This document shows positions 5,967 through 49,646 of a stretch of 55,215 nt of DNA, piece by piece. Position 1 is the stretch's first letter. Each line of letters begins with the position of its first letter. The translations under genes and the position numbers were made by a program. The notes under the pieces were generated by a model. The model searched no databases, was not told where the DNA came from, and saw only the letters and a program-made list of their open reading frames with translations. Source of the DNA: a virus (lineage: Duplodnaviria > Caudoviricetes); the IMG/VR virus record IMGVR_UViG_3300020045_003176, positions 1-55,215 of that record. One strand, 5' to 3'.

Positions 5967-6016
5967 TTAAGCGCCTCGTATCGTGTTCTAGGACGACTAC
6001 TAGAGCATTGTATCGG

Positions 6017-6196: not shown

Positions 6197-6205
6197 TTCG
6201 ATTCC

Positions 6206-6733: not shown

Positions 6734-6949
6734 TCATTTCTTCACCCTGTTAAAAATGGCTAGTGATTCTTGCAAGTGCGCATCCAGTTCTTTCGCTACC
6801 CGGTCATAGCATTCAGGATTGTTGCACTCCTCGCCGCGCTCCTTCGTCCATCCACAGGGGCACGGTTCCCAGCAATCGCATGTTCCGACGCCTAATGATC
6901 CACATTTCACGCAGCAAGCGCTGTCGCTAATCATCGTTTCTAGGCTCAT
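6734..6949 (-). CDS. Cys-rich small protein
   Basis: GAGGTG SD; multiple CxxC/CxC. Confidence 0.55.
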   Translation of the reverse strand: MSLETMISDSACCVKCGSLGVGTCDCWEPCPCGWTKERGEECNNPECYDRVAKELDAHLQESLAIFNRVKK

Positions 6950-7132
6950 TTCGTCACCTCATTTAACCGTTTAACCTGCTTACCATTGCTTGCACAATGG
7001 ACGGAATAATCATCCATGTATAGCCGAACGCTACCCATCCCCAATTACTTGGCGTCAGTCCCCATCCATAAATCATGGTGAAAATAGACACAGGAATGAT
7101 GGATAGTGCAAAAAACAATACAATGAAAGCTT

Positions 7133-17537: not shown

Positions 17538-17610
17538 CGTGATATGAACACCTAAAACGGTGTGATACGTATTGAAAAGACAGGATATACACCTATTCGA
17601 TCTCCCCCTT

Positions 17611-17636
17611 TACCCCTTCCGAGGGGTATTTTTTTG
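17611..17636 (+). terminator. intrinsic terminator
   Basis: TACCCCT-TCCG-AGGGGTA followed by T run. Confidence 0.8.
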
Positions 17637-17702
17637 CCAATACTGATAAAAAGTAAATAGCGCGATTACTGGTATTCAGTGGCGAAACTACGGGTTAGCG
17701 GA

Positions 17703-17747
17703 TATTGCAGAATTTTCTTGACAGACTGCAATACGGTGGTTTCTAAT
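17703..17747 (+). promoter_or_regulatory. promoter with flanking inverted-repeat operator
   Basis: TTGACA(17718)-N18-TCTAAT; TATTGCAG(17703-10)/CTGCAATA(17726-33) brackets the -35. Confidence 0.6.
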
Positions 17748-17864
17748 ATGTGCCTCGCAAGCTCTGCCAAGCTTGAATGCATAGCTGGCAGGCATGTATT
17801 CAAGCCAAACGGGTGAGCACAAAAACAGCCCCTGGATGGTGGAAACTATCTAGGGGCTAACTAT

Positions 17865-18758
17865 TTGGAAACCATCGAGCTACACCCGCTTTGCTCACTT
17901 TTCCCACGGATGCGCGGAGAAGAATACAGCAAGCTCTGCGAAGACATCAAAGCTAACGGGCTTCGCTACCCAATCATCACACACAATGGAATGATCCTAG
18001 ACGGTGGAAACCGGGCTAGAGCGTGCTTCGATCTGGGGATTGAACCGATATACGAAGATTACACCGGAGATAATCTGGTCAGCTTCGTTCTATCAATGAA
18101 TCTGCATCGTCGGCACATGACGGCTGGTCAGCATGCCGCAATCGTCGCCAGTGCGCAGGACTGGTCTGCGGCTCAGAAAGTGGGAAATCCCCAATTCGGT
18201 AATGTTACCGGATTGCAAACCGTGGCAAGCCGATCTGCGGTATCCGGCGCTTCAGACAAGACTCAGCGCAAGGCTGACGCGGTTGCAAAGGCCGATCCAG
18301 AACTAGCTAAAGCCGTTGGGCATGGCGAAGTCAGCTTGGACGAGGCGCATAAACAGGTTAAGCCTGAAGCATCCACGCGCAAGAAGAAATCCATCTTTCA
18401 GAAGATCAAGGATGCGGTGAAGCCGAAACCTGAACCAATCATTGACGAAGAGTGGGTCGAAGATTACGAGAAAGAAGAAGTAAAGCAAGACGAATTGACG
18501 GACTTGCGCAACCAGAATGAGGTATTGCGCATCACTGCCGATGAATTGCTTGCAGAGAATACCGCGATGGGCAAGGTGTTCGATGCTGACGACCGATTAG
18601 CGGCATTGGTAGCGGAAAACAAAATGCTGAAGGCGCAGATCGATATCATGAAAAGCCGAATTGACGGACTCATGGGCGAGAAGAACGAAGCGGTACGACT
18701 AGTAAAGAGTTGGAAGGCTAAAGCCGAGAAGTTGGAGAAGTCAGTCAATGCAGGCTGA
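17865..18758 (+). CDS. ParB-like protein (ParB N-domain, HTH, coiled coil)
   Basis: HPLCSLFP, DIKANGL..PI, ILDGGNR, SMNLHRRH motifs; TTG start. Confidence 0.85.
   Translation: METIELHPLCSLFPRMRGEEYSKLCEDIKANGLRYPIITHNGMILDGGNRARACFDLGIEPIYEDYTGDNLVSFVLSMNLHRRHMTAGQHAAIVASAQDWSAAQKVGNPQFGNVTGLQTVASRSAVSGASDKTQRKADAVAKADPELAKAVGHGEVSLDEAHKQVKPEASTRKKKSIFQKIKDAVKPKPEPIIDEEWVEDYEKEEVKQDELTDLRNQNEVLRITADELLAENTAMGKVFDADDRLAALVAENKMLKAQIDIMKSRIDGLMGEKNEAVRLVKSWKAKAEKLEKSVNAG
18192..18215. promoter_or_regulatory. palindrome copy 1 (core CGGTAA-TG-TTACCG), parS-like/operator
   Basis: CAATTCGGTAATGTTACCGGATTG inside the ParB-like gene. Confidence 0.7.
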
Positions 18759-21122: not shown

Positions 21123-21596
21123 AACATAACATTGGTCTATCGGGCTAAGTTGGTGAGCTAAAAGCGGAGTGTCCAGGCTGGAAATGCACGCGAAGAAACA
21201 TGGGTGCGGCATGTAGAACCTGGGTCAGCCAATAACGACGTTCTGGGATGTTGTGGATGTGCGCACAGAAGTTGCAGGCGCAAACTGGCGGTCAATAATA
21301 GGTGCTGTGCCCCCTTGGGTGGGAACGCAAATCCGTTCTTCAATGTGACGGTGTGAAGCGGCAGACGGTCTATTGTCCTCGGGACAGTGCAAGGCGGGCG
21401 TTTGGGTGCGTCCGCAAATCCGAGATTACTGAGTAGCTACGCCCTAGCGAAACGTGCCATGTGGCTCTACAAGTTCGGCTCCGGTCGTCATGTCGATTTC
21501 ATGGAAAGACCCCAACCCGATAATACTAATTGGGAAGGCGGTCTTTTGCCTGTAGATACAGTTCTCACCTGTAGTCATGATGGAGTTTGAGAGTAA
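21123..21596 (+). ncRNA. candidate structured noncoding element (RNA or origin)
   Basis: ~470 nt gap in a densely coding operon, with nested helices. Confidence 0.35.
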
Positions 21597-21785
21597 ATGA
21601 ATATCACTACCGGCCCCTTGGTCGAAGCATACGCCAAGAAGTTCAGCGTACCAGTCAGCGAAGTCCTAGAATGGATAGATGCTTACGTCCATGCGAAAGG
21701 ACTGCCTGACAACATGGAAATAGAACCTACCGAGCGCGAGCGTGCGACGTCGATTCGCGCCTACATGAAAAGGGAAACGGAATGA
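21597..21785 (+). CDS. hypothetical protein
   Basis: GAG-rich SD, ATGA coupling. Confidence 0.55.
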   Translation: MNITTGPLVEAYAKKFSVPVSEVLEWIDAYVHAKGLPDNMEIEPTERERATSIRAYMKRETE

Positions 21786-22003
21786 CCGCAGACGAACTAA
21801 AAGCAGCTAAGGAATACGCCACTGGAGTCCGCGACGGCTTCAAGACTGGAGGCAGAGAAGCCATGTCGGCCATGATCCTTGCCCTGGTAGCAGAGATAGA
21901 GCTTAGGGACCGTCTAGCGGCTGCTGATGCGCTAATTGCCGCAGGAAAGCGCAAGGCTGATTCTGCCGAAGAGTTGAATTTCCTGAAAGGACTGTTTCGG
22001 TGA
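21782..22003 (+). CDS. hypothetical protein
   Basis: ATGA coupling. Confidence 0.55.
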   Translation: MTADELKAAKEYATGVRDGFKTGGREAMSAMILALVAEIELRDRLAAADALIAAGKRKADSAEELNFLKGLFR

Positions 22004-22200
22004 GAACAGCAACGCCCGCATTAATTGAAAATTTACGATTCCTTGCAAGTAATGTTGCTTGGCCCGTAGTTGCACCAAATGCAGACGTGGTGATTGCTGA
22101 GGCAGCAGATAGGCTTGTTGAATTGCAACATCAACTGGATGTAATGAGGCAAGAATGCGAGGACTGGATGACACTATTCAAGCAAGTGAAAGGCGAGTGA
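22000..22200 (+). CDS. hypothetical protein (EAADRL motif)
   Basis: GTGA coupling. Confidence 0.55.
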   Translation: MRTATPALIENLRFLASNVAWPVVAPNADVVIAEAADRLVELQHQLDVMRQECEDWMTLFKQVKGE

Positions 22201-22253
22201 AATATATTTTCTCTGGCGCGTAAAAACTGCTTGTTTATCGGTATAATTTGCGC

Positions 22254-25392: not shown

Positions 25393-25962
25393 ATGACCCG
25401 TCGCTGTAAAATCTGCAAGGAAAAGTACGAGCCGATTCGACCTCTCCAGGTCGCATGTGGGTTTCTTTGTGCAATGGTACTTGTAACTAGGCAGCGTGAA
25501 AAGAAGGCAGCGGCAGATGCAAAAGTTAGAGCGAAACAGCAGCGCGAGTCTGACAAGGAAAGGCGCGATGCACTCAGGAAGCCGCAATATTTCCTAAAGC
25601 GAGCAGAACATGCGGTCAATGCGTGGTGTCGCTGGCGAGATAGGTTCGAACCGTGCATTTCATGTGGCACGAACGATGCCGAAGAATGGCACGCTGGACA
25701 CCTAATTCCAGTCGGTGCCAGCAGTTTTAGCCGATTTGATCCTCTGAATATTAATAAACAGTGTCGCCAATGCAATTATTTTGGCGCTGGACGGGCTACA
25801 GACTACGAGGTAAGGTTACGTGCCAAGATTGGGAATGAGGCCGTAGAACGGCTTAAAAACGCGCCACGATTGAGAATATGGACTAGAGAAGAATTGCAGG
25901 CGATAGAAAAGGACTTTAAGCAGCGATTGAAAGATGGTATGAAAAATGACACCGTGGCATGA
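25393..25962 (+). CDS. ninG: NinG/Rap junction endonuclease
   Basis: RRCKIC, RD..PCISCG, WHAGH, RF..NI.KQC..CN. Confidence 0.9.
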   Translation: MTRRCKICKEKYEPIRPLQVACGFLCAMVLVTRQREKKAAADAKVRAKQQRESDKERRDALRKPQYFLKRAEHAVNAWCRWRDRFEPCISCGTNDAEEWHAGHLIPVGASSFSRFDPLNINKQCRQCNYFGAGRATDYEVRLRAKIGNEAVERLKNAPRLRIWTREELQAIEKDFKQRLKDGMKNDTVA

Positions 25963-26182
25963 ATTCGTCCGAGGCGAGCGACCATTACCGCCCATAGTCG
26001 GATCGTTCGCTGCGGCTAATCTCGCCCTGGAAGAGTACAAAGTCTGCCGAAAATGTCAGGGACCAGCGCAGCCGGTGAGTGCATTCCGGCGAAGGAAGGA
26101 CACAGGCGAATTGCGTAGCGAGTGTATCGAGTGTGAGAAATTGAGGAAACGGATAGCGAGGGCAAAGAATGGGAACGATTAA
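25946..26182 (+). CDS. zinc-binding hypothetical protein
   Basis: KVCRKC...F...CIEC. Confidence 0.55.
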   Translation: MTPWHEFVRGERPLPPIVGSFAAANLALEEYKVCRKCQGPAQPVSAFRRRKDTGELRSECIECEKLRKRIARAKNGND

Positions 26183-26441
26183 CCCGTTCGACCAATTTTG
26201 TTTCGGTATGAGGCAATTGCCGACTCTGGATAATTTGTATCCTGGCACAAAGACGATCCCGATGGTGCCAGTTCGTGATGTGCGCGACTATGAGATGAAA
26301 GTGTGTGACAGGTGCTTGTTTCCGAAAATCATTACCGCATTTGCGATCAGCAAGAAGACAAATAAAAACGGATTTATCGCATATCGAAAGCTATGCAAGA
26401 AATGTTACAACGAAACGCGACGAGTGATCAAGGGGAAGTGA
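26169..26441 (+). CDS. zinc-binding hypothetical protein
   Basis: KVCDRC...F...CKKC. Confidence 0.55.
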   Translation: MGTINPFDQFCFGMRQLPTLDNLYPGTKTIPMVPVRDVRDYEMKVCDRCLFPKIITAFAISKKTNKNGFIAYRKLCKKCYNETRRVIKGK

Positions 26442-26442: not shown

Positions 26443-27192
26443 ATTATCCATTACCACGGCCTACCGATAACCCCAGGGAAGGCAGCTATGGCGGCAATCA
26501 GCGGTGGTCATCCGTTTATCTCTGTTCGTTACGCAGATCAACTCGGCTTAGCGCTCGAATGTTGCCAAAGTCTAGCGGTGGATAATAGCGCGTTCTCGGC
26601 ATGGAAAGACGGCAATCCGATAACTAATTGGGAATTCTATTACAAGTGGATTGCTGAACTTCACAGATACCCGCAATTTGACTTTGCCGTTATACCGGAT
26701 GTGATAGATGGCAACGAATCTGATAACGATGCATTAGTTGAAGCATGGCCTTGGCAGACCGCAAAGAATAAATGGGTTGGTGCTCCTGTGTGGCATATGC
26801 ATGAAAGCATTGATCGGCTTAAACGATTAGCACACGAATGGCCGCGTATATGCCTTGGCTCCAGTGGGCAATATTCGACTGTAGGTGATTATAGGTGGTG
26901 GAATAGGATGGCCGAAGCGATGAATGCGGTATGCGACAAACTAGGTAATCCAATTGCTAAACTTCATGGCCTGCGCATGCTGAACCCGGATGTGTTTTCT
27001 CGCCTTCCATTCTCCAGCGCGGACAGCACGAATATTGCGCAGAACGTGGGCATTGACTCAGCATGGAGAGGAACCTACACGCCGGCCAGCAAGGAAGTGC
27101 GCGCTCTAGTGATGCGAAATCGAATCGAGTCTATTCAGTCCCCGACATTTTGGGACAAGCAGGCCATCCAAGGAGATCTATTATGCGCGTAA
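26443..27192 (+). CDS. TGT/DpdA-like TIM-barrel transglycosylase (putative); ATT start proposed, first ATG at 26488
   Basis: IHYHG.PITP N-terminus; DNSAFS, PDVI, PVWH, LGSSG, HGLR, SADST echo the TGT-family motif order. Confidence 0.6.
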   Translation: MIHYHGLPITPGKAAMAAISGGHPFISVRYADQLGLALECCQSLAVDNSAFSAWKDGNPITNWEFYYKWIAELHRYPQFDFAVIPDVIDGNESDNDALVEAWPWQTAKNKWVGAPVWHMHESIDRLKRLAHEWPRICLGSSGQYSTVGDYRWWNRMAEAMNAVCDKLGNPIAKLHGLRMLNPDVFSRLPFSSADSTNIAQNVGIDSAWRGTYTPASKEVRALVMRNRIESIQSPTFWDKQAIQGDLLCA

Positions 27193-27431
27193 CGTATAGC
27201 CTGGAGATCACGGCAATTTGCCCGGTCGATAGCAAGCCAGATGTTTATGAATGCGTGATCGAATCGCGGCGAGTTATCCCGGTCGAGGACATCTTGAAGG
27301 CCGCACAAACTGTAAAAAACATGGTGTCGTATCAAGAGGAAATTTGTCAGGAACTGCACCGGAGTTTGGCATGTTGCGTGCGTCTGACGGGCTATCACAG
27401 CGGCGTGCGGACGGACGTTGTATGTGGATGA
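27183..27431 (+). CDS. QueF-like single T-fold protein
   Basis: 82 aa; CPVDSKPD (cf. QueF CPxTxxPD), VE, YQEE, HSGV; GGAG SD. Confidence 0.65.
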   Translation: MRVTYSLEITAICPVDSKPDVYECVIESRRVIPVEDILKAAQTVKNMVSYQEEICQELHRSLACCVRLTGYHSGVRTDVVCG

Positions 27432-27459
27432 TGGCGCGGAAACAGGGGAGACGGAAATA

Positions 27460-27855
27460 ATGGGAACGAACTACTACCTACATCAAAAACCAGACTGTGA
27501 ATGCTGCGGGCGGCCATTTGAGCCGTTGCACATCGGCAAAAGCTCAGGCGGATGGTGCTTTAGTTTGCACGTAATGCCTGATGACAACATCCACGATCTG
27601 GATGATTGGCGGAATGAATGGGCAAAGCCAGGGGCATTCATCCGCAACGAATACGGCGAGAAAGTTTCAATTGCTGAAATGGAATTAATTATCACGGTGC
27701 GGAGTGGGAAAAAGCCGCCGGAGTGGAGTCCTGGTGAGTATCGGAGCAACTACGGTGAGCCAGGACCAAATAATTTAGTGCGCCACGCGATTGGAGAATA
27801 TTGCATCAAGCATGGATCTGGAACGTGGGATTGCTGTACGGGAGAATTCTTGTGA
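27460..27855 (+). CDS. conserved phage protein (MGTNYY...LHIGKSS.GW.F...DEYG/NEYG)
   Basis: Recognisable motif set. Confidence 0.7.
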   Translation: MGTNYYLHQKPDCECCGRPFEPLHIGKSSGGWCFSLHVMPDDNIHDLDDWRNEWAKPGAFIRNEYGEKVSIAEMELIITVRSGKKPPEWSPGEYRSNYGEPGPNNLVRHAIGEYCIKHGSGTWDCCTGEFL

Positions 27856-28112
27856 GCGAATGGCAAATACTCCTAGCCCAGATAGATCAAGGACCAAGGC
27901 GATGGGGAGACGTGACATTGCAATCTGCTGCGGTAGGCCGAGGCAAGTCTAAGGCGCATGAGTTCATTGATGGAAAGCGGATATGTCTTGGGTGCGGCCA
28001 TAATAGGATGGCAAGGGAATACCCTACATACACGTCTAAATCCGGTGCAACTGTGCATAAAAGTCAGTGTCGGTTATGCCGAAATAAATCGCGTAGGGTG
28101 CCTAAGCAATAA
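27852..28112 (+). CDS. zinc-binding hypothetical protein
   Basis: GTGA coupling; CLGC...CRLC. Confidence 0.5.
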   Translation: MSEWQILLAQIDQGPRRWGDVTLQSAAVGRGKSKAHEFIDGKRICLGCGHNRMAREYPTYTSKSGATVHKSQCRLCRNKSRRVPKQ

Positions 28113-28116
28113 TATC

Positions 28117-28146
28117 TTGACCTGTACAAAATACCACTGGTAGAAT
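28117..28146 (+). promoter_or_regulatory. sigma70 promoter
   Basis: TTGACC-N18-TAGAAT with TGG extended -10. Confidence 0.7.
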
Positions 28147-28152
28147 TTACAG

Positions 28153-28700
28153 TATGGTATCCCGTGGAACGGATACACATAAGGGTTGGCGGAGTAGTCG
28201 GGAGCGATTACCGAGTCATGTGCATCCAACCCTGCATGTAACTTGATCCAAGCCGCCAGCTAATATGTCAAATCCAAAAGCCTGGCGACTTGAAAGAGTT
28301 ATGGGCTTTTTCTTTGCCCATTGTCCCGTGACACTGACGATACAGGACGTTGCCAACAGCTACGCACATGTTGGAACTGCGGGTAGTTGCCGCAGTCGGC
28401 CAAGCGGACGCTCCGTGAGCATACCCGGAGTGACCCGCTCCCCGGAAACGGATATACGAACCTAACGTCGAAAGGCGTTAAAGCACAGTAGCAAAAGTGG
28501 TGACGGCTTCCAGAACATCGGATATACCGGCGAGGTGGCAAACTACCTGCCTCGTTCGACGAATGGTCAGGCGACGGCATGCCCTGCCGAAAGCTCGGAG
28601 ATGAGCGGGGGTTCGGTAAAGGAGGCTGAACTGCTAAACCGTTGAGGCGTAGAACCCTCAAACCCATAGGCAGTGCGAGAGCCGGGTTAGGGTTATTGCG
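28153..28700 (+). ncRNA. candidate large structured ncRNA with c4/CI-like leader
   Basis: More than 12 hairpins, several GNRA loops, own promoter, no convincing ORF. Confidence 0.55.
28276..28315 (+). terminator. terminator/attenuator hairpin
   Basis: AAAAGCC...GGCTTTT followed by TCTTT. Confidence 0.55.
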
Positions 28701-28704
28701 CCCA

Positions 28705-28914
28705 TCATTCCCATGGCGGTTTCCCCTTTAGATCGGTCTTGACGTAATGCTTGCCAACGATAACACCTGACGAGCGCATGTTATGTGATGAATACGGCTT
28801 AGGCTTCTTGGGTGGATAGGGAGAATGCTTGACTACCGGATTCCTTGGTAACTCTTCTTGCAGCAACAAGGCGATAAGCTCCTTGTGCTTTGGAATCCGA
28901 TAGACCGTACTCAT
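28705..28914 (-). CDS. hypothetical protein
   Basis: End of the leftward operon. Confidence 0.45.
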   Translation of the reverse strand: MSTVYRIPKHKELIALLLQEELPRNPVVKHSPYPPKKPKPYSSHNMRSSGVIVGKHYVKTDLKGKPPWE

Positions 28915-28916
28915 GC

Positions 28917-29180
28917 CTACTCACGCATTGCAAGCCAAGCACTAACCTTCTCCGGCGATCCATGACAAGCCGCTGGAGCCTCGTTATAAAGGAATGCACA
29001 GAAGGCAGGAAGGTTCTCGATATTATCATCATCGGCCCGACCGCATGCCTCAGATAAGTTATTTTCGAGGACAGCCATCAAGAAGTCACCTGGTTCGATA
29101 TGTTCCTCGATGTATCGGATCAATCCGCCCATCATGAAATCACGGATAACAAAGTCACGGAATCGGTAAGTCATTTTCAT
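28917..29180 (-). CDS. conserved phage protein (PG.FL.AVL.N.L..A...AD)
   Basis: Recognisable motif; ATGA coupling. Confidence 0.7.
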   Translation of the reverse strand: MKMTYRFRDFVIRDFMMGGLIRYIEEHIEPGDFLMAVLENNLSEACGRADDDNIENLPAFCAFLYNEAPAACHGSPEKVSAWLAMRE

Positions 29181-29365
29181 TTCCCCTTTGGTGGATTCAA
29201 TCCAAATGCATGGATAAGCGCCTTCTCAACTACGCTACTTTGCGACTCATTCCCGCCTTCTCTGAGCCATCTAGCAAGCCATCGAGGTAGTTTGAGATAG
29301 ACGCCGATCCTTCTCATATCCTCATCTTTGATGCTAGGAGGTCGGCCTAAACGATGCCGGGTCAT
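29177..29365 (-). CDS. ribbon-helix-helix-like DNA-binding protein
   Basis: GRPP AT-hook, then beta strand VYLKLP and helices. Confidence 0.6.
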   Translation of the reverse strand: MTRHRLGRPPSIKDEDMRRIGVYLKLPRWLARWLREGGNESQSSVVEKALIHAFGLNPPKGK

Positions 29366-29574
29366 TGGTGTGCTACCAGATAGTTGATCCAGCCAGACCA
29401 GTATCCATAGTCGGCCAGCGTATAATCAACGACATCGACTGGAAAAAGATTATTCATGAGCGTGCGTGCTTCATTCCATGAATGGGATATTAAATAATCC
29501 TGACATGCTTGCCATCCGCGCTGCCGATTCTCGTGAATTTCTTCCTTTGCTGCGTTGAGATTTTGAATGCTCAT
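29362..29574 (-). CDS. hypothetical protein
   Basis: GAGGA SD. Confidence 0.55.
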   Translation of the reverse strand: MSIQNLNAAKEEIHENRQRGWQACQDYLISHSWNEARTLMNNLFPVDVVDYTLADYGYWSGWINYLVAHQ

Positions 29575-29733
29575 TTCGATTCCTCTTTAATCCAATCAGC
29601 AATAACCTTACCCGCTTGTTCCGCACACAAGCCAAAGTCAGCAATCAGCACGGTAACAATGATCTTGTAGTCCGTGCGTGATGCTAAGGCAGCTTCAATG
29701 TAGCGGTAAGCGGGTTTCACGGCAGCGATCCTC

Positions 29734-30015
29734 TTAATAACCATCCTGAGAGATTTCGTCGGCCATGTCGTTGAATTCGCGCATCGTTAGATAGCGAGCG
29801 TAGAAATTGCCACGATGATTACGGAAAGCCGCATAAACATCCTCGCCTTTATTATTTTTGTGATGGACTTCCCCGACCAAGAATGCGCCTCCAAGGTGTG
29901 CTGCGGGAGGTACGCAGCCTAATTGATCATCGTACATTGCTTCTGTTGTTGGAATCCAAGCATGAGGATTGTCACGCATCCATGACCATAATTGGTCCCA
30001 TTCGTAAGTATCCAT
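29734..30015 (-). CDS. DUF1419-like hypothetical protein (start MDTYE)
   Basis: TEAMY..L..VPP....GAFLVGE motif; AGGGG SD. Confidence 0.5.
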   Translation of the reverse strand: MDTYEWDQLWSWMRDNPHAWIPTTEAMYDDQLGCVPPAAHLGGAFLVGEVHHKNNKGEDVYAAFRNHRGNFYARYLTMREFNDMADEISQDGY

Positions 30016-30071
30016 TTGTTTCCCCCTAGTTAGTGCCAGCATCTGGCTGGCGTGGTAAAATTAACGCTGTT

Positions 30072-30653
30072 TCATCCCCATTGATCGGCCATTGCGTTTG
30101 CGATTCCTTGATATGTTCTACTCCGGTCTTTCCATCGATCTGGACTGGGAGGTAATTTGTTCTGTCCGCTCTTTGTTTGATTCGCTCGCCGTGTTTTATC
30201 GTTACCTTGTAAGCGATTTGTCTCGGTAAGTAGCGGCAATCGTTTCAGCCATAGACATGTTTTTTTGCTTGCATCTTCGCCGAAATGCCACGGTTGAATG
30301 ATTTGATCCGGTTTTCGTATGCGTGAAGAGATGCAACTAACGGGATTCTCAATGCCAATCTGGTCTATGTCTGAATTCATTAACATCCGAACGAAATCAA
30401 GCGCTAACTCTGTTTTATCTGATCGACCTACAATCCGACCATTCCAATGCAATCCACTGACGGACAGATAGGTACATGGTGGATGCGCTATCATTAAATC
30501 CCAGCGCGTTGCCAACATGTCCCGAATGTCGCCTCGATAATGATTACCTGGTCGCTCAGTTTCAAGCAGATCGCAACTCCATGCATCATGGCCTTTAGCA
30601 GCGAAGGCATCCCGAACGATGCCTGAATACTCGCAAGCAATCAGGACGCGCAT
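30072..30653 (-). CDS. short phage DNA cytosine methyltransferase-like protein
   Basis: VLIACEYSG, AHPPCT, ENP, QPWHFG, K.TCLW, RS.TY.GIA.AMA.QWG. Confidence 0.85.
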   Translation of the reverse strand: MRVLIACEYSGIVRDAFAAKGHDAWSCDLLETERPGNHYRGDIRDMLATRWDLMIAHPPCTYLSVSGLHWNGRIVGRSDKTELALDFVRMLMNSDIDQIGIENPVSCISSRIRKPDQIIQPWHFGEDASKKTCLWLKRLPLLTETNRLQGNDKTRRANQTKSGQNKLPPSPDRWKDRSRTYQGIANAMADQWG

Positions 30654-30900
30654 TCAATTTCTCCAATCGGATCAGCACTGACAGAAAAGAAAGGGAAACA
30701 CTGATCAACTAGAATATCCCGCGCATCGTATTCATCATCAGCAATAACGGTCGCAATTTCCTGCGCTCCTGTCCGAAGATTGATTACTGTGAATTGGTAT
30801 TCCATGTCGATTCCCCTTTGTCTGTTTGCCTACTGAGATTTCAGTATATACCACAAATAGGCCAAATAGTATGCATATGACCTATTCATGAAAATAAATA

Positions 30901-31107
30901 TTAGTCCTCGCAAACTTGATACGCTGGATCTGTCTCACGAAAGATTCGATGCAGCGCCGCACAGACACGGTTCCTGAAACGTGCCTCATGAGGGGTTGAA
31001 ATTGGAAGAGAGTGAGCTACTTCGAACATCGTGCGTCCTTCGCGCCATGCTTCCAAAGCGACTTCTTGAGCGGCGTTGAGTGTGACTTGCTGTGCGGTTA
31101 GTTTCAT
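30901..31107 (-). CDS. hypothetical protein
   Basis: GGGG SD before MKLTAQ. Confidence 0.45.
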   Translation of the reverse strand: MKLTAQQVTLNAAQEVALEAWREGRTMFEVAHSLPISTPHEARFRNRVCAALHRIFRETDPAYQVCED

Positions 31108-31198
31108 TTGTGATTCCCCCATGATTTATGATAAAATACAAAGTGATACGGCTTGTTGCTCATTAAAAATATACTACTTTTTTTGCTCTGTGTGCGAG

Positions 31199-31396
31199 CT
31201 ATGAAAAGAAATTTTCAGGTAGCCAGGTAACATGCTGAATTGTGTGCTTATCGCGCATAATTCCCGATGCCCAGCAAGCATTCGAGAATCCCCAATCAGG
31301 ATGGTAAAAGACAGTCTGCGGTAGGCCGATCCTGTTCGCTTCGTCCATGGCTGGTCTGTGTGCTTCGACTAGGACTCTGGCTGTATTCTGTTTCAT
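31199..31396 (-). CDS. hypothetical protein
   Basis: AGGAG SD. Confidence 0.55.
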   Translation of the reverse strand: MKQNTARVLVEAHRPAMDEANRIGLPQTVFYHPDWGFSNACWASGIMRDKHTIQHVTWLPENFFS

Positions 31397-31439
31397 GGAA
31401 ACTCTCCTGTAAAATAAATGTTCTGCTCATTGGAGCGAA

Positions 31440-31482
31440 CGGTCATGCGTAGCAAAAATCCCCCTTGAGCTACGCATGACCG
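31440..31482. other. 14-bp perfect hairpin (terminator or RNA processing site)
   Basis: CGGTCATGCGTAGC...GCTACGCATGACCG just past the DUF932 stop. Confidence 0.55.
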
Positions 31483-31489
31483 CTGTTTG

Positions 31490-32296
31490 TTAGGCCATCA
31501 GCTTGCGCATTTCCTCTGCGAGCGTCCAGAGGCCACGATTAATCGCCGTGTTCTGATCTATCCCGCTGATAGATTTTGTGGATACGTTCCGACGTTGGCC
31601 GAGTTCATTGACTTTGCGACCATGCAAACCGCCTTTAATGGCGTTTTCCTGAACGACGTTAAACACCGAGAACAGATCAGGTTTAGTATCTTCCTGGCGA
31701 CGCGGACGAAGCAATTGCGAGGCATCAAAGCCGGAATCTTCGGGAGATTCAAATCGGATAGCAAGAGCTGCCTTAGCAAAGGCATTAGCATGGTCACGGT
31801 TAAGCGTGAGTGACTTCATGCCACTGATAGACTCGGCCACGCGATCAAAGTCATTAACGATGCTGTACGCGCCTTCTATGACCTTATTCACGGCATCGCC
31901 CGAGTGACGTACGCGAATCTCGTTGTCTGTCTCGCCGCAGATCAGACCATTCGAGCAAACAAACCGATACACGCCAGCCATGATTTTGAACCCTGACGAA
32001 CCATCGTGAGAGTTGATCAAAATAACTTCCCGCGCCTCGGTAGAATCCATCTGATCGGCACGGCGGAAGCGCAAAAGATGCTTGTTAAATCCGGCTTTGC
32101 CTACGGTGCGAGTCCGAGAAGTAAAGGCCTGGACAGGCATAAAACCTTCTGAACGCATGCCATTGACGACATCAAGCGTGGGAATGTAGGTGTAACGCTC
32201 AGAGCGAGATTCGTGGGCCGATTCAGCGAAAATTGCCGGGGCCATACGCACCAATTCATCGGTCGAGAGTGCGGTAGCGGATTGTTGTTTGTACAT
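31490..32296 (-). CDS. DUF932/DUF945 family protein
   Basis: HESRSERY.YIPT, KHLLR.R, NSHDGSS, RFVCSNGL, N.GLW.LAE. Confidence 0.9.
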   Translation of the reverse strand: MYKQQSATALSTDELVRMAPAIFAESAHESRSERYTYIPTLDVVNGMRSEGFMPVQAFTSRTRTVGKAGFNKHLLRFRRADQMDSTEAREVILINSHDGSSGFKIMAGVYRFVCSNGLICGETDNEIRVRHSGDAVNKVIEGAYSIVNDFDRVAESISGMKSLTLNRDHANAFAKAALAIRFESPEDSGFDASQLLRPRRQEDTKPDLFSVFNVVQENAIKGGLHGRKVNELGQRRNVSTKSISGIDQNTAINRGLWTLAEEMRKLMA

Positions 32297-32455
32297 GATG
32301 TATCTCCTTGATTAAAAACAGCTTGGCAAAATTGCCGGTTAGAACAAACTAATTTCGATTAACGAGTGGAAACAAGCATTTGCAGAGATCATGCCTGACT
32401 GATAAGCCGCTCGGATAAGCCGGCTCAGTTCGGTGCGTCGGTCAAGGCTCATGAT

Positions 32456-32632
32456 TTACTCAACAACCCAGAACGTCGGGCCACTGACGGCGATTGATGA
32501 GCCATCGGAGAATGTGTATGTAGTCGTCTCAGTCGCCCAGTCGTTATCTACTTCGGCCTCTTTTGAATGAGCCAGCGTATCAAGCGCTACCGCATCATTG
32601 GCTGAGTTATAAACTTGTTCTGCTGTTGTCAT
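32456..32632 (-). CDS. hypothetical protein (start MTTAEQ)
   Basis: AAGGAG SD; YTFSDGS motif. Confidence 0.6.
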   Translation of the reverse strand: MTTAEQVYNSANDAVALDTLAHSKEAEVDNDWATETTTYTFSDGSSIAVSGPTFWVVE

Positions 32633-32672
32633 TTTGATTCTCCTTGTCTGTGTTTCGTTATCCAATGATTAG

Positions 32673-32700
32673 AGTATATACGTTAAATAGAGTAATGCAA
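32673..32700 (-). promoter_or_regulatory. leftward early promoter
   Basis: Minus strand TTGCAT-N16-TATACT. Confidence 0.55.
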
Positions 32701-32899
32701 TAGATCAGAGTAAATAAATCAATCCAGCCGACGAACGGTAGGTAGTAACTTATAAACTACTGAATTGATTGAACTAAATATAAGGAAAACGAAAAGCCAT
32801 TTGTTGCATCGCACAATGAACGAATAGCACACAGCAAAGAATTTATCCTGTAGAATCAACACATAAACTGCCAAACAGGCGGTATCGTGAATAGATCAG

Positions 32900-33373
32900 A
32901 TGAGAGCGCAAGCCATAGAATCTCTCAAGGACATAGATAGCTCGCTGATGGAGCTACAGATTGCCTCCCCACAAAGAGGGTCAATCGTCCTATCTAACGC
33001 CGAAAACATCATCCGCCAAGTCGCTGACGGCCTAATGCTCAAAGACATAGGCGCTCAGTACGGCATTAAACCCGCAACTATCTCAGATCAACTCAGCAAA
33101 TACCCCGTCTATCAAAGAGCCAGAATGATTGGCGCTGAAATGAGACTAGAGAAGAACTACGGGGAAATAGAGAGCGCAGAAGATGCTTTAGACGTAACTC
33201 GCGCACGCGAATCCTTTCGAGCTGCATCCTGGCTTGCTGAACGGGAATTCCCTGAGCGCTGGGGTAACAAAGCATCGCAAACTGTTGTTAATGTTCAACA
33301 AAACAACGTCCAAGTAGCTCCAGATGACCGTGATGCTCGCATAGCTGAGCTACTAGCGCGAGCCGGTAAGTAG
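32900..33373 (+). CDS. terS: terminase small subunit
   Basis: N-terminal HTH, Y.RAR, W.AER..P.RWG motif; upstream of TerL. Confidence 0.75.
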   Translation: MRAQAIESLKDIDSSLMELQIASPQRGSIVLSNAENIIRQVADGLMLKDIGAQYGIKPATISDQLSKYPVYQRARMIGAEMRLEKNYGEIESAEDALDVTRARESFRAASWLAEREFPERWGNKASQTVVNVQQNNVQVAPDDRDARIAELLARAGK

Positions 33374-33374
33374 C

Positions 33375-33398
33375 CTATCCGGTAACATTACCGAATAG
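33375..33398. promoter_or_regulatory. palindrome copy 2 (core CGGTAA-CA-TTACCG)
   Basis: CTATCCGGTAACATTACCGAATAG directly after the terS stop. Confidence 0.7.
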
Positions 33399-33425
33399 CG
33401 GAATGGTCAATTAGATCAATCATTT

Positions 33426-33956
33426 ATGGCAAATCCACCAGTCTGCAAAATATGCAAGACGGCTCATTGGTCCGGTCAGGGTCATTCGTGCGACGATAAA
33501 CCGAAGAAATCCGTTGATAAACAAGAGGATAGGGATAAGGCAGCGATCATAGACGACCTGCGCGTGAAGACGGCTGCGATCACTGGCAAAGCCGCTCCAT
33601 TGGTCACGCACTGCGTCAATTGTGCGACCAAAGACGGTGAGATTAAGCGCCAGACTGCTGATTTACTGGCCGCTAGTGCGCTCATTATCGAGCTGAGAGC
33701 GGAGATTGACGAGCTAACACGTGCTAACACTCTGCTAACAACTGCTAACACTCTGCTAACAGGGCGTGCTAACAACCTGCTAACAGCTAACACGCCTGCT
33801 AACACAATCAATCCTGTTAGCACTCAGCCTGCTAACACAACTGCTAACGTGCTAACAGATGCTAACAGCGCTGCTAACAAGCTAACAGACCGTAAAGAGT
33901 ACATGCGCGAGCTAATGAGGGCCAAGCGAGCGGCAAAGAAGGCGAGCAATGGATAG
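33426..33956 (+). CDS. Zn-finger/coiled-coil protein with basic C-terminal helix, containing a DNA repeat array
   Basis: CKIC..HW...H.C, CVNC, coiled coil, RKEYMRELMRAKR. Confidence 0.65.
   Translation: MANPPVCKICKTAHWSGQGHSCDDKPKKSVDKQEDRDKAAIIDDLRVKTAAITGKAAPLVTHCVNCATKDGEIKRQTADLLAASALIIELRAEIDELTRANTLLTTANTLLTGRANNLLTANTPANTINPVSTQPANTTANVLTDANSAANKLTDRKEYMRELMRAKRAAKKASNG
33713..33887. repeat. array of 16 GCTAAC motifs (15 direct, 1 inverted)
   Basis: Starts at 33713, 723, 734, 744, 755, 768, 779, 786, 798, 816 (inverted), 831, 843, 851, 861, 873, 881. Confidence 0.95.
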
Positions 33957-34203
33957 TTGGGATACGCTGATCGAGGCGTTCGAGGCAATCCCCCGAGTCG
34001 GCAAAGCGCCGCGCACAGGGAATCACGCCGACTATCTCAAGTGGCAATCTGAGTGTGACCGGCGAGATGTAATGATGCAAGATTGGATAGCTAGAGTGGA
34101 TGCGCTCCAGTCCGCTCAATCACATGGTGAGTATCAGACTCGGCAAGCCAAGCATTCATTTCTGGCCGACTCATCTCCACCGAACGGCTCAGAATTCAAC
34201 TGA
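33949..34203 (+). CDS. hypothetical protein
   Basis: Overlaps the upstream stop. Confidence 0.45.
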   Translation: MDSWDTLIEAFEAIPRVGKAPRTGNHADYLKWQSECDRRDVMMQDWIARVDALQSAQSHGEYQTRQAKHSFLADSSPPNGSEFN

Positions 34204-47544: not shown

Positions 47545-49113
47545 ATGGCATTAACCAATTTTCCTAACGGGGTATCGAGCATGGGTGTTCCGGTCTTGGG
47601 AGGGCAAGTCCCAACCACGACCGGAAACTACTGGTTCGTTGATTCCGCAGGCACTGTCGGAGATGGTACGCAATCTACATCTCCTTTTCTAACCATCGCA
47701 GCGGCTGTTTCTGCGGCTACTGCTAACAACGGTGACATTGTTGTTGTTGCCGCTCGTCATGCTGAAACCATCTCAGGTGCCGCAGGCATTGCTTTCTCCA
47801 AGGCAGGCTTGACGTTCTTCTTCTGTGGTGAGGGGGCGAATCGTCCTACCTTCACCTTGGGGACTTCCACGGCGGCGACCATCACCGTAACCGGCGCGAG
47901 TACCAAATGGACCGGTGCTAAACCGATTATCGTTTGTGCGCTTGACAGCATTGTCAGTTGTATCGTCGTATCGGCGGCTAACTGTACTCTATCCTATGAG
48001 CATCAGGATACGTCAGCGACTGTTGAGGCAGTGACTTCGTTGCTGACCACGGCAGCGGCAGACAACCTGACAGTGGATCTGAAGTATATCGGCTTCCCTG
48101 CAGGTAATGCTTGCGTCGCACCAATCCAGCTAGTTGGATGTAATAACGCGGTCATTAATCTGGACTTCTACGGCCTAGCGAGTACGTCGGTAGTGAATTT
48201 CATCACCCCGGCTAGTTCGAATATCGAAGTATATGGCTACGCTTACAACGCCACGGACACGACTGGCGCCAAGCTGGTCGTGGATACGGTGGGTGGTAGC
48301 ACCTGGTTTGCTAACCTCTACGCTGGAGCCGCAGGCGCGCAGTTCTCTGGCGGATCGGGCGCGGCGATTGCGACTGACGACGTGCAGGCTCTGTTGGCTG
48401 TTCCGACAGCGGACGCTACCACGAACGTCTATGAGCGGGATGTAATCGGTATCAAGACAGATGCAGCGGTGACAGCCGTGGGGACTACCAAGTCCATCAC
48501 GGCTTACGCCAAGGGCTTGGTAACGATGAACACTGTTCAATCGGCGGATGCGACTAACAACGCCTTTGCCGGAGATGTTGTCGGTAACAAGACGGATGCG
48601 GCGGTTACTGAAGTTGGGACTACCAAGTCCTTGGCAGCCTACGCCAAAGGTCTGGTCGGCCAGATGTGGGCCAGCCCGATCTGTGTGGAGAAGGCTGACG
48701 GTGCGGTACTGAGTGGGGATGATCCTATCTTCACCATCTCTGGCGGCCCAGTTCGAATTTTGTCAATTACTGGCATCGTAACAACTCAGATTGGTGCCGG
48801 TACGACAAACGTCAAACTGGAGTTGGACACAACGACCCCATCGGCGACCGTGCAGATGAATGCTGGAGCGGTAGATATCGATGCAGACGCTGCTGGGACT
48901 TCGTATCGTTCCATCAACACCACGGGAATTTTCACACCAATTACCGCTGGATTTGTACTTATCGCCAATGCTTTTGCTGTGCTTGACACAGAGTACCTTG
49001 CCCCAATCGGAACGATTCAGTTTAACTCTGATGCGGCCCGTGCCGGAAACATCAAGTGGTATTTGAGCTACATCCCACTTTCCCCTAACAGCCGAGTCAC
49101 GGCAGCCGCCTAA
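47545..49113 (+). CDS. virion structural protein (head fibre/beta-helix-like) with 45-aa duplication
   Basis: TNFPNG start typical of post-MCP genes; PF.TI..A beta-helix cap. Confidence 0.6.
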   Translation: MALTNFPNGVSSMGVPVLGGQVPTTTGNYWFVDSAGTVGDGTQSTSPFLTIAAAVSAATANNGDIVVVAARHAETISGAAGIAFSKAGLTFFFCGEGANRPTFTLGTSTAATITVTGASTKWTGAKPIIVCALDSIVSCIVVSAANCTLSYEHQDTSATVEAVTSLLTTAAADNLTVDLKYIGFPAGNACVAPIQLVGCNNAVINLDFYGLASTSVVNFITPASSNIEVYGYAYNATDTTGAKLVVDTVGGSTWFANLYAGAAGAQFSGGSGAAIATDDVQALLAVPTADATTNVYERDVIGIKTDAAVTAVGTTKSITAYAKGLVTMNTVQSADATNNAFAGDVVGNKTDAAVTEVGTTKSLAAYAKGLVGQMWASPICVEKADGAVLSGDDPIFTISGGPVRILSITGIVTTQIGAGTTNVKLELDTTTPSATVQMNAGAVDIDADAAGTSYRSINTTGIFTPITAGFVLIANAFAVLDTEYLAPIGTIQFNSDAARAGNIKWYLSYIPLSPNSRVTAAA

Positions 49114-49124: not shown

Positions 49125-49646
49125 ATGAGTAATATTGATCGTTTGGCATACAACAAGGCAGGCCAGTTATTCTCTGCATCCAACGTCGCGGCAAAGGTAG
49201 TTTCCGCTGTCGGGACGTCAATGACGGGGGTTATTCTCTACAACCCTACGGGGTCTGGAAAGACTCTCTACATTGTTGATGTAGGTTGGGCATGGACCAC
49301 GGCACCTGGGGCAGTTCATAACATCGGACTTGCTGTCATGGCACCGAATCCGACTGTTCCAACGAGCTTGACCGCTATCGGGTCGGGTGTGTTGAGCGGA
49401 CAGGGTACAGGCAATCGGGGTAACTCGGTGGCTCAGGCTTACGATGCGGCTACTGTCGCGGCGGCACCTGTCATTCAACGTATCTGCTTCGGTGCATCGT
49501 ATGGGTCAGGCGTTGGGGAATCACCCCATTGCTTGATTGATTATGTCGATGGTGCGTTGGCCGTTTCTCCGGGTGGAGTGATTTGTTTCGCTCGCGTCAC
49601 CACAGATGCAACAGGTGTTGGTTCGATCAGTTGGATTGAGCAGTAA
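49125..49646 (+). CDS. putative virion structural protein
   Basis: Beta-rich; L.NP.GSG motif; AAGGA SD. Confidence 0.55.
   Translation: MSNIDRLAYNKAGQLFSASNVAAKVVSAVGTSMTGVILYNPTGSGKTLYIVDVGWAWTTAPGAVHNIGLAVMAPNPTVPTSLTAIGSGVLSGQGTGNRGNSVAQAYDAATVAAAPVIQRICFGASYGSGVGESPHCLIDYVDGALAVSPGGVICFARVTTDATGVGSISWIEQ

What the first reader, a model, noticed from the sequence alone, without database searches (positions are those of the whole stretch)
28316..28700. Large hairpin-dense ncRNA candidate with GNRA loops
Seen: ~380 nt almost fully tiled by stems: ACTGCGG/CCGCAGT (28376-96), GCGG..CTCCG/CGGAG..CCGC, CCG-GAAA-CGG (28442-51), TAACGTC-GAAA-GGCGTTA (28463-80), CGAGG/CCTCG with an inner GCAA loop (28531-54), CGGCA/TGCCG, GCTC/GAGC, GTTCGG/CTGAAC, AACCC..AACCC/GGGTT.GGGTT (28653-94). 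G-U pairs favour the + strand. It sits behind its own promoter and leader at the junction of convergent operons. I do not recognise it as tRNA, tmRNA, RNase P or an intron. Inference: an undescribed large phage RNA (ribozyme, scaffold, protein sponge or replication primer).
Basis: partly seen in the sequence, partly recalled or inferred. Interest (0 to 1): 0.8.

Follow-up and report, generated by a model that had tools for sequence, protein, structure and literature searches.

The report
Orphan structured RNA candidate in phage
A gene-free 0.6-kb stretch between two converging gene blocks of an uncultured phage probably makes a folded non-coding RNA, but only one partial relative was found, so its shape and job remain unproven.

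Summary
The stems are there. Seven of the nine listed helices are in the minimum-energy fold. No ORF in the 592-nt gap 28113-28704 looks coding, and no Rfam family, tRNA or tmRNA matches.

For an RNA gene:
- The promoter at 28117-28146 is the best sigma-70-type site in the 55 kb.
- Folding of 28400-28637 is specific to the + strand. The 144-nt domain 28494-28637 gives z -3.40 on + against +0.58 on -, with MFE frequency 0.18, reached by 2 of 2,296 background windows.
- Three GNRA-capped hairpins lie on the + strand only.
- One 165-nt public contig repeats 28569-28611 with one change, while its flanks diverge.

Against:
- Fold energy is not an outlier in this genome, and a coding window scores the same.
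- 28150-28400 is not + specific.
- A terminator-like hairpin (28276-28318) lies between the promoter and the flagged stretch.
- No other relative turned up in any collection, so covariation could not be tested, and no RNA data exist.

Verdict: a plausible orphan structured phage RNA reached by read-through. Confidence 0.4, function unknown.

The parts
28117..28146 (+). Sigma-70-type promoter, TTGACC-18 nt-TAGAAT with an extended -10 TG. The predicted start is near 28152-28154.
   Evidence: 10 of 12 matches, TG; only 3 sites of >=10/12 on both strands of the 55 kb, and this is the only one with TG. The start site is inferred from spacing and was not measured.
28152..28275 (+). Promoter-proximal leader: a 6-bp hairpin at 28157-28176 and a multibranch structure closed by 28184-28192/28253-28261.
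   Evidence: 28152-28318 folds at -58.1 kcal/mol, z -2.91, 2 of 200 shuffles as good; the - strand of 28150-28297 folds as well (z -3.29), so the signal is not strand-specific.
28276..28318 (+). Terminator-like element: an A-tract, an interrupted stem capped by GAAA (28276-28310), then the U-tract UUUUUCUUU.
   Evidence: present in both MFE and centroid folds; -13.3 kcal/mol for 28268-28318, z only -1.57. The simple terminator scan does not call it. On the - strand this hairpin is not the preferred fold. Its function is inferred.
28301..28396 (+). Four short hairpins (28301-21, 28323-48, 28353-74, 28376-96). The first competes with the terminator-like stem.
   Evidence: pair probabilities 0.44-0.93.: + z -1.37 against - z -3.59, so this part gives no support for a + strand RNA.
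28403..28480 (+). A 12-bp bulged hairpin (28403-28439), CCG-GAAA-CGG (28442-51) and the 7-bp GAAA hairpin (28463-80).
   Evidence: pair probabilities 0.96-0.99, 0.60, 0.94; 28400-28495 + z -2.91 (2 of 200 shuffles) against - z +0.16.
28496..28635 (+). Multibranch domain. A three-segment closing helix (28496-501/28630-35, 28504-11/28621-28, 28517-23/28611-17) leads to a junction with four hairpins (28529-51, 28552-74, 28575-89, 28593-606).
   Evidence: -59.8 kcal/mol, MFE equals centroid, MFE frequency 0.18, z -3.40 (1 of 200 shuffles); - strand -35.7, z +0.58; frequency >=0.18 in 2 of 2,296 background window-strands; a strand difference this large in 5 of 383 windows. Prediction only; there is no covariation.
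28569..28622 (+). Block kept in the only relative found: two short hairpins (loop UGCCC; GAGA tetraloop) joined by AAA, the G-run, and the 3' strand of the third closing-helix segment.
   Evidence: one 165-nt contig of coded run X1 lies on 28569-28611 with 1 other letter. The contig continues on both sides with letters the tool reports as unlike the window. By eye, 10 of the next 11 letters match after a one-letter shift, which extends the block to 28622.
28646..28702 (+). Long terminal hairpin (about 21 bp in four segments) ending 3 nt before the stop codon of the convergent ORF 28705-28914(-). It may be the 3' end or a two-way transcription stop.
   Evidence: pair probabilities 0.95-0.99.: + z -3.99 (0 of 200 shuffles), - z -2.59. 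No U-tract follows on either strand. Its role is inferred.

Best explanation
The flagged stretch is the distal part of a promoter-driven, ORF-free transcription unit of about 550 nt (about 28152 to about 28703, + strand). It sits at the end of the early-right operon of an uncultured lambdoid-like phage.

A strong sigma-70-type promoter fires into the gap. About 125-165 nt downstream a GAAA-capped hairpin with a U-tract would stop part of the transcripts. Polymerases that read through would make a folded non-coding RNA. Its well-defined part is 28400-28703: a 12-bp hairpin, two GAAA hairpins, a 144-nt multibranch domain and a long terminal hairpin that abuts the convergent gene.

I read this as a stand-alone structured RNA gene of a new and so far orphan family. 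It would be expressed conditionally behind a promoter-terminator gate, in the way tRNA genes sit behind the late promoter and its terminator in Shiga-toxin phages (recalled, not from a call). It would act in trans through the conserved block 28569-28622, most likely as a binding platform for a protein or another RNA.

Shown: absence of coding signal, the promoter motif, strand-specific fold statistics for 28400-28637, GNRA enrichment, and one conserved block.
Inferred: transcription, read-through, the 3' end, and any function.
For: 1. No gene. The gap ORFs (66 aa +, 122 aa -) score -0.20 and -0.22 with no frame preference, while 21 training genes score >=0.10 in frame. The 8 ORF fragments have no PHROG or Pfam hit; the best E-values are 0.2 and 0.096. 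The 122-aa ORF has no homologue.

2. Promoter. It matches 10 of 12 positions and has an extended -10, and is unique in the window in combining the two.

3. Strand-specific folding of 28400-28495 (z -2.91 against +0.16) and 28494-28637 (z -3.40 against +0.58, a 24 kcal/mol difference).

4. The 144-nt domain is unusually well defined. Its MFE frequency is 0.18; the background median is 0.009 and the 99th percentile 0.089, and 2 of 2,296 window-strands reach 0.18.

5. GNRA hairpins. Three with stems >=5 bp lie on the + strand of the gap and none on the - strand. The whole window has 31 on both strands, so 0.16 are expected per 558 nt.

6. One conserved block. A public contig keeps 28569-28611 with one change while its flanks run on unlike the window. 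By eye the flanks are still alignable: 19 of 29 letters on the left and 17 of 29 on the right. Two one-letter length differences either side of the block would break any reading frame across it.

7. No match to any described RNA family, tRNA or tmRNA, so it is not a mis-filed known RNA.
Against: 1. Fold energy is not exceptional for this phage. GC-corrected 400-nt windows over the region lie at -0.9 to -2.1 sd, while coding windows reach -3.0. 12 of 766 arbitrary 144-nt window-strands reach z <= -3.4, and my window was chosen in phase after the fact.

2. A coding window (48385-48528 +) has the same energy (-59.8) and MFE frequency (0.19). A second triple of GNRA hairpins lies in coding sequence at 49257-49578. 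These signals therefore do not by themselves mark an RNA gene.

3. 28150-28400, which includes the first 85 nt of the finding, folds as well or better on the - strand.

4. A terminator-like hairpin lies between the promoter and the flagged stretch, and no other promoter-like site of >=9/12 lies in the gap. The stretch may be little transcribed.

5. No covariation. The searches for relatives gave:
- nothing in GenBank phages, plasmids or E. coli genomes;
- nothing in 11 related viral records, by BLAST, nhmmer, tblastx and a covariance model;
- nothing confirmed in IMG/VR, JGI metagenomes or GTDB genomes by pattern scans.

6. In the one hairpin where the relative's changes can be read by eye (28552-28574), the upper stem keeps pairing (C-G to U-G), but three changes break the predicted lower stem unless its 5' strand shifts by some nucleotides.

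7. No U-tract follows the terminal hairpin.
Confidence: 0.4

Rival explanations
1. Ordinary junction spacer. The gap is the non-coding seam between two convergent transcription units. It holds a promoter for a short leader RNA (about 165 nt) that ends at the 28276-28318 terminator-like hairpin, and a stop hairpin (28646-28702) for the minus-strand block. The 330 nt in between would be weakly or not transcribed, and its hairpins are what 55% GC sequence gives.
For: The terminator-like hairpin lies upstream of the flagged stretch. No second promoter lies in the gap. Fold energy is within the range of coding windows of the same phage. The stretch is absent from 11 related phage records, and the immediate neighbours (69 aa, 103 aa) have no relatives either, so this is a fast-changing seam.
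Against: The 144-nt domain is in the top 0.1-1% of the window for fold definition and strand asymmetry. GNRA hairpins cluster on one strand. A block of 43-54 nt is nearly unchanged in a relative whose flanks have diverged, which chance spacer sequence should not be.
Confidence: 0.3
2. Late-promoter unit of the lambda PR'-6S-tR' type. The promoter and its short terminated leader would be the phage's antitermination-controlled late promoter. The structured stretch would be part of the long leader, or a relic of it, read only by modified polymerase. The minus-strand block 28705-32631 would be a later insertion between it and the packaging genes at 32900.
For: Position: it lies on the same strand as NinG and 2.2 kb after it, at the very end of the early-right operon. 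It has a strong sigma-70 promoter with an extended -10 and a terminator-like hairpin about 125-165 nt downstream. No sigma-70-like site of >=9/12 precedes the terS operon at 32632-32899. In relative L005 the homologue of the 131-aa gene lies about 440 nt before terS-like and terL genes.
Against: No Q-family protein was found. Pfam gave no hit for the three genes upstream, PDB sequence searches were empty, and the model of the 131-aa protein has no fold match (best E 1.4). The next + strand genes are 4.2 kb away, behind a block of ORFs on the opposite strand of which two have family matches. This reading does not explain the conserved block.
Confidence: 0.15
3. DNA-level site. The conserved block and surrounding palindromes would act as double- or single-stranded DNA, for example as a replication origin, a protein-binding site or a recombination site lying in a quiet zone between two terminators.
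For: The 43-nt block is kept at the nucleotide level while its flanks diverge. The zone lies between a terminator-like hairpin and a terminal hairpin. Several hairpins in 28150-28400 and at 28646-28702 are equally stable on both strands.
Against: There are no iterons or repeated boxes; only two short direct-repeat families of 14-19 nt at 79% identity. No integrase or replication initiator lies next to it. No copy exists elsewhere in the window. The domain that holds the block is stable only as + strand RNA with G-U pairs. The relative's flanks are homologous rather than unrelated, unlike an attB site (by eye).
Confidence: 0.1
4. One or more small protein genes hidden in the gap, such as the 66-aa ORF 28265-28465 (+).
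For: ORFs of 30-122 aa exist in the gap.
Against: Codon scores are like off-frame sequence and show no frame preference. No ribosome-binding motif precedes the 66-aa ORF (read). The 8 fragments have no Pfam or PHROG hit. The 122-aa ORF has no homologue. The 66-aa ORF was not searched in the large protein set.
Confidence: 0.03

Closest known systems
GOLLD, ROOL and OLE: large 'ornate' RNAs of bacteria, phages and prophages (PMC5737381 and bioRxiv 10.1101/2024.12.08.627333; I saw only the search listing and the start of each abstract)
   Same: It is an ORF-free stretch of several hundred nucleotides in a phage. It is predicted to form many helices with GNRA tetraloops and a multibranch domain, and its function is unknown.
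   Different: No covariance-model match to these or any other Rfam family, even at E<=10. No tRNA genes lie nearby. Only one partial relative is known, against hundreds for those families. The well-defined part is shorter, about 300 nt.
Lambda late promoter PR' with its 6S RNA and terminator tR', and the tRNA genes that lie behind tR' in Shiga-toxin phages (recalled from general knowledge, no call)
   Same: It lies after the nin region, on the same strand as NinG. It has a strong constitutive-type promoter, a short leader ending in a terminator-like hairpin, and a structured RNA-coding stretch beyond it that only read-through would express.
   Different: No Q-family antiterminator was detected. 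No lysis or packaging genes follow on the same strand. The terminator is weak and only predicted.
P1 c4 and P4 CI immunity RNAs
   Same: A structured RNA directly behind a promoter, with a possible attenuator.
   Different: Those RNAs act on target sites in protein-coding mRNA downstream. Here no + strand gene follows for 4.2 kb. The family was not tested by any model here.
ColE1-type RNA II replication primer with RNA I (recalled)
   Same: A promoter-driven, highly folded, non-coding transcript of about 550 nt.
   Different: No RNAI match in Rfam. The scan found no convergent antisense promoter in the gap. Replication genes are 5-10 kb away. An origin function was not testable.

Membership tests
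Any Rfam 15 family (including GOLLD, ROOL, OLE, HEARO, group I and II introns, RNase P, 6S, riboswitches) | Covariance-model score at or above the family's gathering threshold | tested here: not met
   0 matches in the whole window at gathering thresholds. At E<=10 there are three hits over 28050-28800, 28480-28650 and 28140-28420: two CRISPR-DR hits at 16 bits against a cut-off of 45, and one lncRNA hit at 8 bits against 75.
tRNA / tmRNA | Cloverleaf or tmRNA architecture found by ARAGORN | tested here: not met
   0 genes in the window.
Self-splicing intron (group I or II) | It interrupts a gene whose two halves join into one reading frame | tested here: not met
   The upstream ORF ends with its own stop at 28112, before the promoter. 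The longest + strand ORF in the 1.5 kb downstream is 66 aa (29100-29300).
Lambdoid late promoter unit (PR'-6S-tR') | Strong sigma-70 promoter at the end of the nin/Q region | tested here: met
   (promoter). (NinG at 25393-25962, same strand).
Lambdoid late promoter unit (PR'-6S-tR') | Intrinsic terminator that ends a short leader RNA | tested here: inconclusive
   A GAAA-capped interrupted hairpin plus U-tract at 28276-28318 is present in the MFE and centroid folds. Its z-score is only -1.57 and the terminator scan missed it.
Lambdoid late promoter unit (PR'-6S-tR') | Q-family antiterminator gene directly upstream | tested here: not met
   No Pfam family for 27177-27431, 27460-27855 or 27801-28112. 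PDB sequence searches found nothing meaningful. The model of the 131-aa protein (pLDDT 74.5) has no PDB fold match with E<1. The 103-aa Zn-ribbon ORF was not modelled.
Lambdoid late promoter unit (PR'-6S-tR') | Late (lysis or packaging) genes downstream on the same strand | tested here: not met
   The next + strand genes start at 32900 (terS-like). 28705-32296 is occupied by ORFs on the - strand, of which the DNA methyltransferase and the DUF932 gene have family matches.
RNA partner of a nearby protein (retron msr-msd, omega RNA of TnpB/IscB, bridge RNA, type III antitoxin) | An adjacent reverse transcriptase, TnpB/IscB, recombinase or toxin gene; tandem repeats for type III antitoxins | tested here: not met
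   None of the 30 ORFs scanned against Pfam is such a protein. There are no tandem repeats in the gap.
Structured ncRNA in general | Helices supported by compensatory changes in homologues | not testable with these tools
   The only relative is one 165-nt contig, of which 103 letters are visible.

The most novel reading that the evidence does not exclude
The stretch is the founding member of a new family of large structured phage RNAs, with a well-defined part of about 300 nt built around a five-way-junction domain. It would be expressed only when polymerase reads through a promoter-proximal terminator. It would therefore be a conditionally made RNA machine or decoy (for example a ribozyme, or a sponge for a host defence or RNA-binding protein) and not a leader or spacer.
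Probability: 0.3. Interest if true: 0.6.

Novelty: new variant of a known kind. Interest (0 to 1): 0.35.

Why it matters
Large structured RNAs of phages, such as GOLLD and ROOL, are among the least understood RNA classes, and each new family widens what RNA is known to do without protein. If this element is real, it adds a family with an unusual control layout: a strong promoter, then a terminator-like gate, then the folded RNA. It would also give a small, sharply defined 144-nt domain that is easy to probe and to solve.

If it is not real, the case still teaches something. In this phage, coding windows reach the same fold statistics and the same GNRA clustering. Hairpin density and tetraloops alone are therefore weak grounds for calling an RNA gene.

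Tried and rejected
Known RNA families. Rfam at gathering thresholds and at E<=10, plus ARAGORN, gave nothing usable. The two CRISPR-repeat hits (E about 5, - strand) are chance-level, so I dropped an 'RNA anti-CRISPR' reading.

DNA similarity.
- No match in GenBank phages, plasmids or E. coli genomes.
- No match elsewhere in the window itself or in this scan's earlier findings.
- 11 related viral records were negative by blastn and nhmmer, whole-record BLAST (best E 0.07, matches of 14-24 nt), tblastx (best E 0.29) and covariance model R1. R1 was built from a single sequence and finds only itself in the window.

Collection scans.
- The antisense 122-aa ORF served as a six-pattern probe. IMG/VR gave 15 stretches, JGI metagenomes 415 and GTDB genomes 248; none was confirmed.
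- Exact sub-blocks of the conserved core gave 0 hits in IMG/VR, metagenomes and genomes.
- A loop-only degenerate pattern gave 3 IMG/VR hits (L019-L021) without the stems, so they are chance.

Neighbour genes used as anchors. The 87-aa gene gave 2 loci and the 131-aa gene 9 loci, none with the element. The 69-aa and 103-aa ORFs have no relatives.

Other readings tested.
- Invertible segment: no flanking inverted repeats.
- Pseudogene: no translated similarity.
- Q-like antiterminator upstream: not found.
- Repeated hairpin motif 28160-78 / 28439-57 (79% identity over 19 nt): by my own rough estimate about 0.2 such pairs are expected by chance, so I dropped it.

Sequencing runs. No RNA holder is listed. 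One run (X1) is listed; its kind 'RNA?' is a guess and its share is 0.03. Laid on 27000-30000, it covers only 28569-28611. The parts without cover say nothing.

Papers. I made one search and saw only the listing and the start of the abstracts. No paper was opened, and supplements are closed.
Full report
CONTEXT

The window is one IMG/VR virus record of 55,215 b, linear, with a CheckV completeness of 71. It is far from any cultured phage: the best large-terminase match in GenBank phages is 41% identical, and there is no nucleotide match.

The gene order is lambdoid-like:
- A + strand early-right operon from about 17865. It holds helicases, a Toprim primase and a DNA methylase, NinG at 25393-25962, a DpdA-like phrog_887 protein at 26488-27192 and three small Zn-ribbon ORFs. 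It ends at 28112.
- A block on the opposite strand from 28705 to about 32630, in which the DNA methyltransferase and the DUF932 gene have family matches.
- Packaging genes from 32900 on the + strand.

The finding lies in the 592-nt gap 28113-28704 between the two converging blocks.

The hairpins exist. Seven of the nine listed stems are in the RNAfold MFE of 28300-28710, with mean pair probabilities of 0.60-0.99. Two are not:
- The supposed GCAA tetraloop is a CAAA loop on a different stem.
- The local GTTCGG/CTGAAC hairpin gives way to long-range pairs.

The gap carries no coding signal. Its ORFs score like off-frame sequence. The eight ORF fragments hit nothing in Pfam or PHROGs. The 122-aa antisense ORF has no homologue at near or shorter lengths.

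The promoter TTGACC-18-TAGAAT with an upstream TG is one of only three sites of >=10/12 on both strands of the window, and the only one with an extended -10.

IS IT MORE THAN CHANCE?

The answer is mixed. The 411-nt stretch folds at -157.4 kcal/mol, with z -3.09 on the + strand and -0.89 on the - strand. Against the phage's own background it is unremarkable:
- After a GC regression, 400-nt windows over the region lie at -0.9 to -2.1 sd, and coding windows reach -3.0.
- 12 of 766 arbitrary 144-nt window-strands reach z <= -3.4.

Splitting the gap is more informative:

| Segment | + strand z | - strand z |
|---|---|---|
| 28150-28297 | -2.34 | -3.29 |
| 28298-28400 | -1.37 | -3.59 |
| 28400-28495 | -2.91 | +0.16 |
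| 28494-28637 | -3.40 | +0.58 |
| 28640-28706 | -3.99 | -2.59 |

The first two segments fold as well or better on the - strand. The next two are strongly + specific. The 144-nt domain 28494-28637 folds at -59.8 kcal/mol on + against -35.7 on -, its MFE equals its centroid, and its MFE frequency is 0.18. A frequency that high is reached by 2 of 2,296 background window-strands. A strand difference that large is seen in 5 of 383 windows.

GNRA-capped hairpins with stems >=5 bp number 31 in the whole window on both strands. Three of them (28292, 28470, 28598) lie on the + strand of the gap and none on its - strand.

The controls cut both ways. A coding window (48385-48528 +) has the same energy and frequency, and another GNRA triple lies in coding sequence at 49257-49578. 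My windows were also chosen after seeing the fold.

A GATE BEFORE THE FINDING

Another first-stage note on this window (e1-6370901) mentioned a U-tailed hairpin, so I folded 28152-28318. In both the MFE and the centroid there is an A-tract, an interrupted stem capped by GAAA (28276-28310) and the tract UUUUUCUUU. On the - strand this hairpin is not preferred.

It is weak (z -1.57) and the simple terminator scan misses it, so I call it terminator-like and nothing more. No other promoter-like site of >=9/12 lies in the gap. If it works, the flagged stretch 28316-28700 is transcribed only by read-through.

RELATIVES

Nothing similar was found in:
- phages, plasmids or E. coli genomes;
- 11 viral records that share the flanking 87-aa or 131-aa genes;
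- IMG/VR, JGI metagenomes or GTDB genomes, by pattern scans.

The one exception is a 165-nt contig of a coded public run (X1; its kind is a guess). It lies on 28569-28611 with a single different letter and then runs on, on both sides, with letters the tool reports as unlike the window.

Reading those loose ends by eye, the flanks are still homologous:
- Left: 19 of 29 letters identical.
- Right: 10 of 11 identical after a one-letter shift, then 7 of 18.

This gives a block of about 54 nt (28569-28622) that is almost unchanged inside sequence diverged to about 60%. One-letter length differences on both sides of the block would break any frame that spans it.

The block covers two junction hairpins (loops UGCCC and GAGA), the AAA between them, and the 3' strand of a closing-helix segment of the 144-nt domain. 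The partner strands are not visible, so covariation cannot be tested.

In the one hairpin that is visible on both sides (28552-28574), the upper stem survives a C-to-U change as a wobble pair. Three changes break the predicted lower stem unless its 5' strand is shifted.

WHAT IT MOST LIKELY IS

My best reading (confidence 0.4) is a promoter-driven, ORF-free unit whose read-through product carries a structured RNA of a new, orphan family. Its well-defined part is 28400-28703, and it ends in a long hairpin that abuts the convergent gene. The layout recalls structured RNA genes placed behind a late promoter and its terminator in lambdoid phages (recalled knowledge). The conserved block is the best candidate for the working surface. 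Transcription, read-through, the 3' end and the function are all inferred.

RIVALS

- An ordinary seam with a short leader RNA, two stop hairpins and chance structure in between (0.3).
- A lambda-type late promoter and leader (0.15). Position, the promoter, the terminator-like hairpin and the lack of a sigma-70-like site before terS fit. There is no Q-family protein and no late gene downstream on the same strand.
- A DNA-level site (0.1).
- Hidden small genes (0.03).

COMPARISON WITH WHAT IS KNOWN

The element behaves like the large ornate RNAs of phages (GOLLD, ROOL; listing and abstract starts only) in being long, ORF-free and helix-rich. It fails the membership test for every Rfam family. 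It is not a tRNA or tmRNA, not an intron, and has no partner protein of the retron, TnpB, IscB or recombinase kind among the 30 ORFs scanned against Pfam.

Earlier reports of this scan describe similar orphan candidates in other uncultured phages. They are unrelated in sequence and add no evidence here.

VERDICT

This is a plausible but unproven orphan structured RNA. The claim of strand specificity is right for the distal 240 nt only. The 'own promoter' claim needs the caveat of an intervening terminator-like hairpin. The functional guesses have no support. Interest is 0.35. If a deeper search confirmed a family with covariation, it would deserve about 0.6.

Noticed in passing
window 25946-26182, 26169-26441, 27801-28112 (+): Three small paralogous Zn-ribbon ORFs (CxxC...CxxC with a basic tail) are spread through the end of the early-right operon. 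The first two weakly resemble the N-terminal part of endonuclease VII/HNH families (PHROG E 2e-4). The third, directly upstream of the promoter, has no relative in IMG/VR or GenBank phages.
   Followed up: partly
window 26488-27431 (+): A DpdA-like protein (phrog_887 'queuine tRNA-ribosyltransferase', E 7e-65) is followed by an overlapping 84-aa ORF (phrog_37496). This suggests a 7-deazaguanine DNA-modification module.
   Followed up: no
window 27460-27855 (+); L004-L012: A conserved 131-aa family (motifs MGTNYYL, LHIGKSSGGWCF, HG-GTWD; 60-79% identity in 8 IMG/VR relatives) has no Pfam family. Its AlphaFold model (pLDDT 74.5) has no PDB fold match (best E 1.4). In relative L005 it lies about 440 nt before terS-like and terL genes.
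   Followed up: partly
window 31393-31536 (+), inverted repeat 31440-31453 / 31469-31482: This is the strongest fold signal of the whole window (z -9.2). It comes from a perfect 14-nt inverted repeat with a 15-nt spacer, just downstream of the DUF932 gene.
   Followed up: no
window 48385-48528 (+) and 49257-49578 (+): Inside late structural genes, one 144-nt window has the same energy (-59.8) and MFE frequency (0.19) as the candidate domain. Three GNRA hairpins with stems >=5 bp cluster nearby. Several + strand windows at 48.4-50.4 kb have z below -4. These are strongly structured mRNA segments, or a caution for fold-based calls.
   Followed up: no
window 17601-18000 and 17761-17904 (+): A very stable stretch lies just before and over the start of the first early-right gene at 17865: -60.9 kcal/mol with MFE frequency 0.11, and GC-corrected z -3.0.
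   Followed up: no
window 27500-29500 and 28000-34000: Canonical intrinsic-terminator motifs are fewer than in shuffled sequence: 0 against 1.8 expected, and 1 against 5.6 expected. This phage may rely on hairpins without U-tracts or on factor-dependent termination.
   Followed up: no
L007 3836-3880: A relative carries a near-consensus promoter (TTGACA-17-TACAAT) with the same 11 letters running from upstream into the -35 hexamer as the window's promoter. There it is followed within 30 nt by a ribosome-binding site and a 116-aa ORF, not by an ORF-free stretch.
   Followed up: partly
window 5560-7045 and 21123-22247: Two further stretches have no ORF of 100 aa or more. The finding's gap (28113-28704) has no sequence similarity to it.
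   Followed up: no
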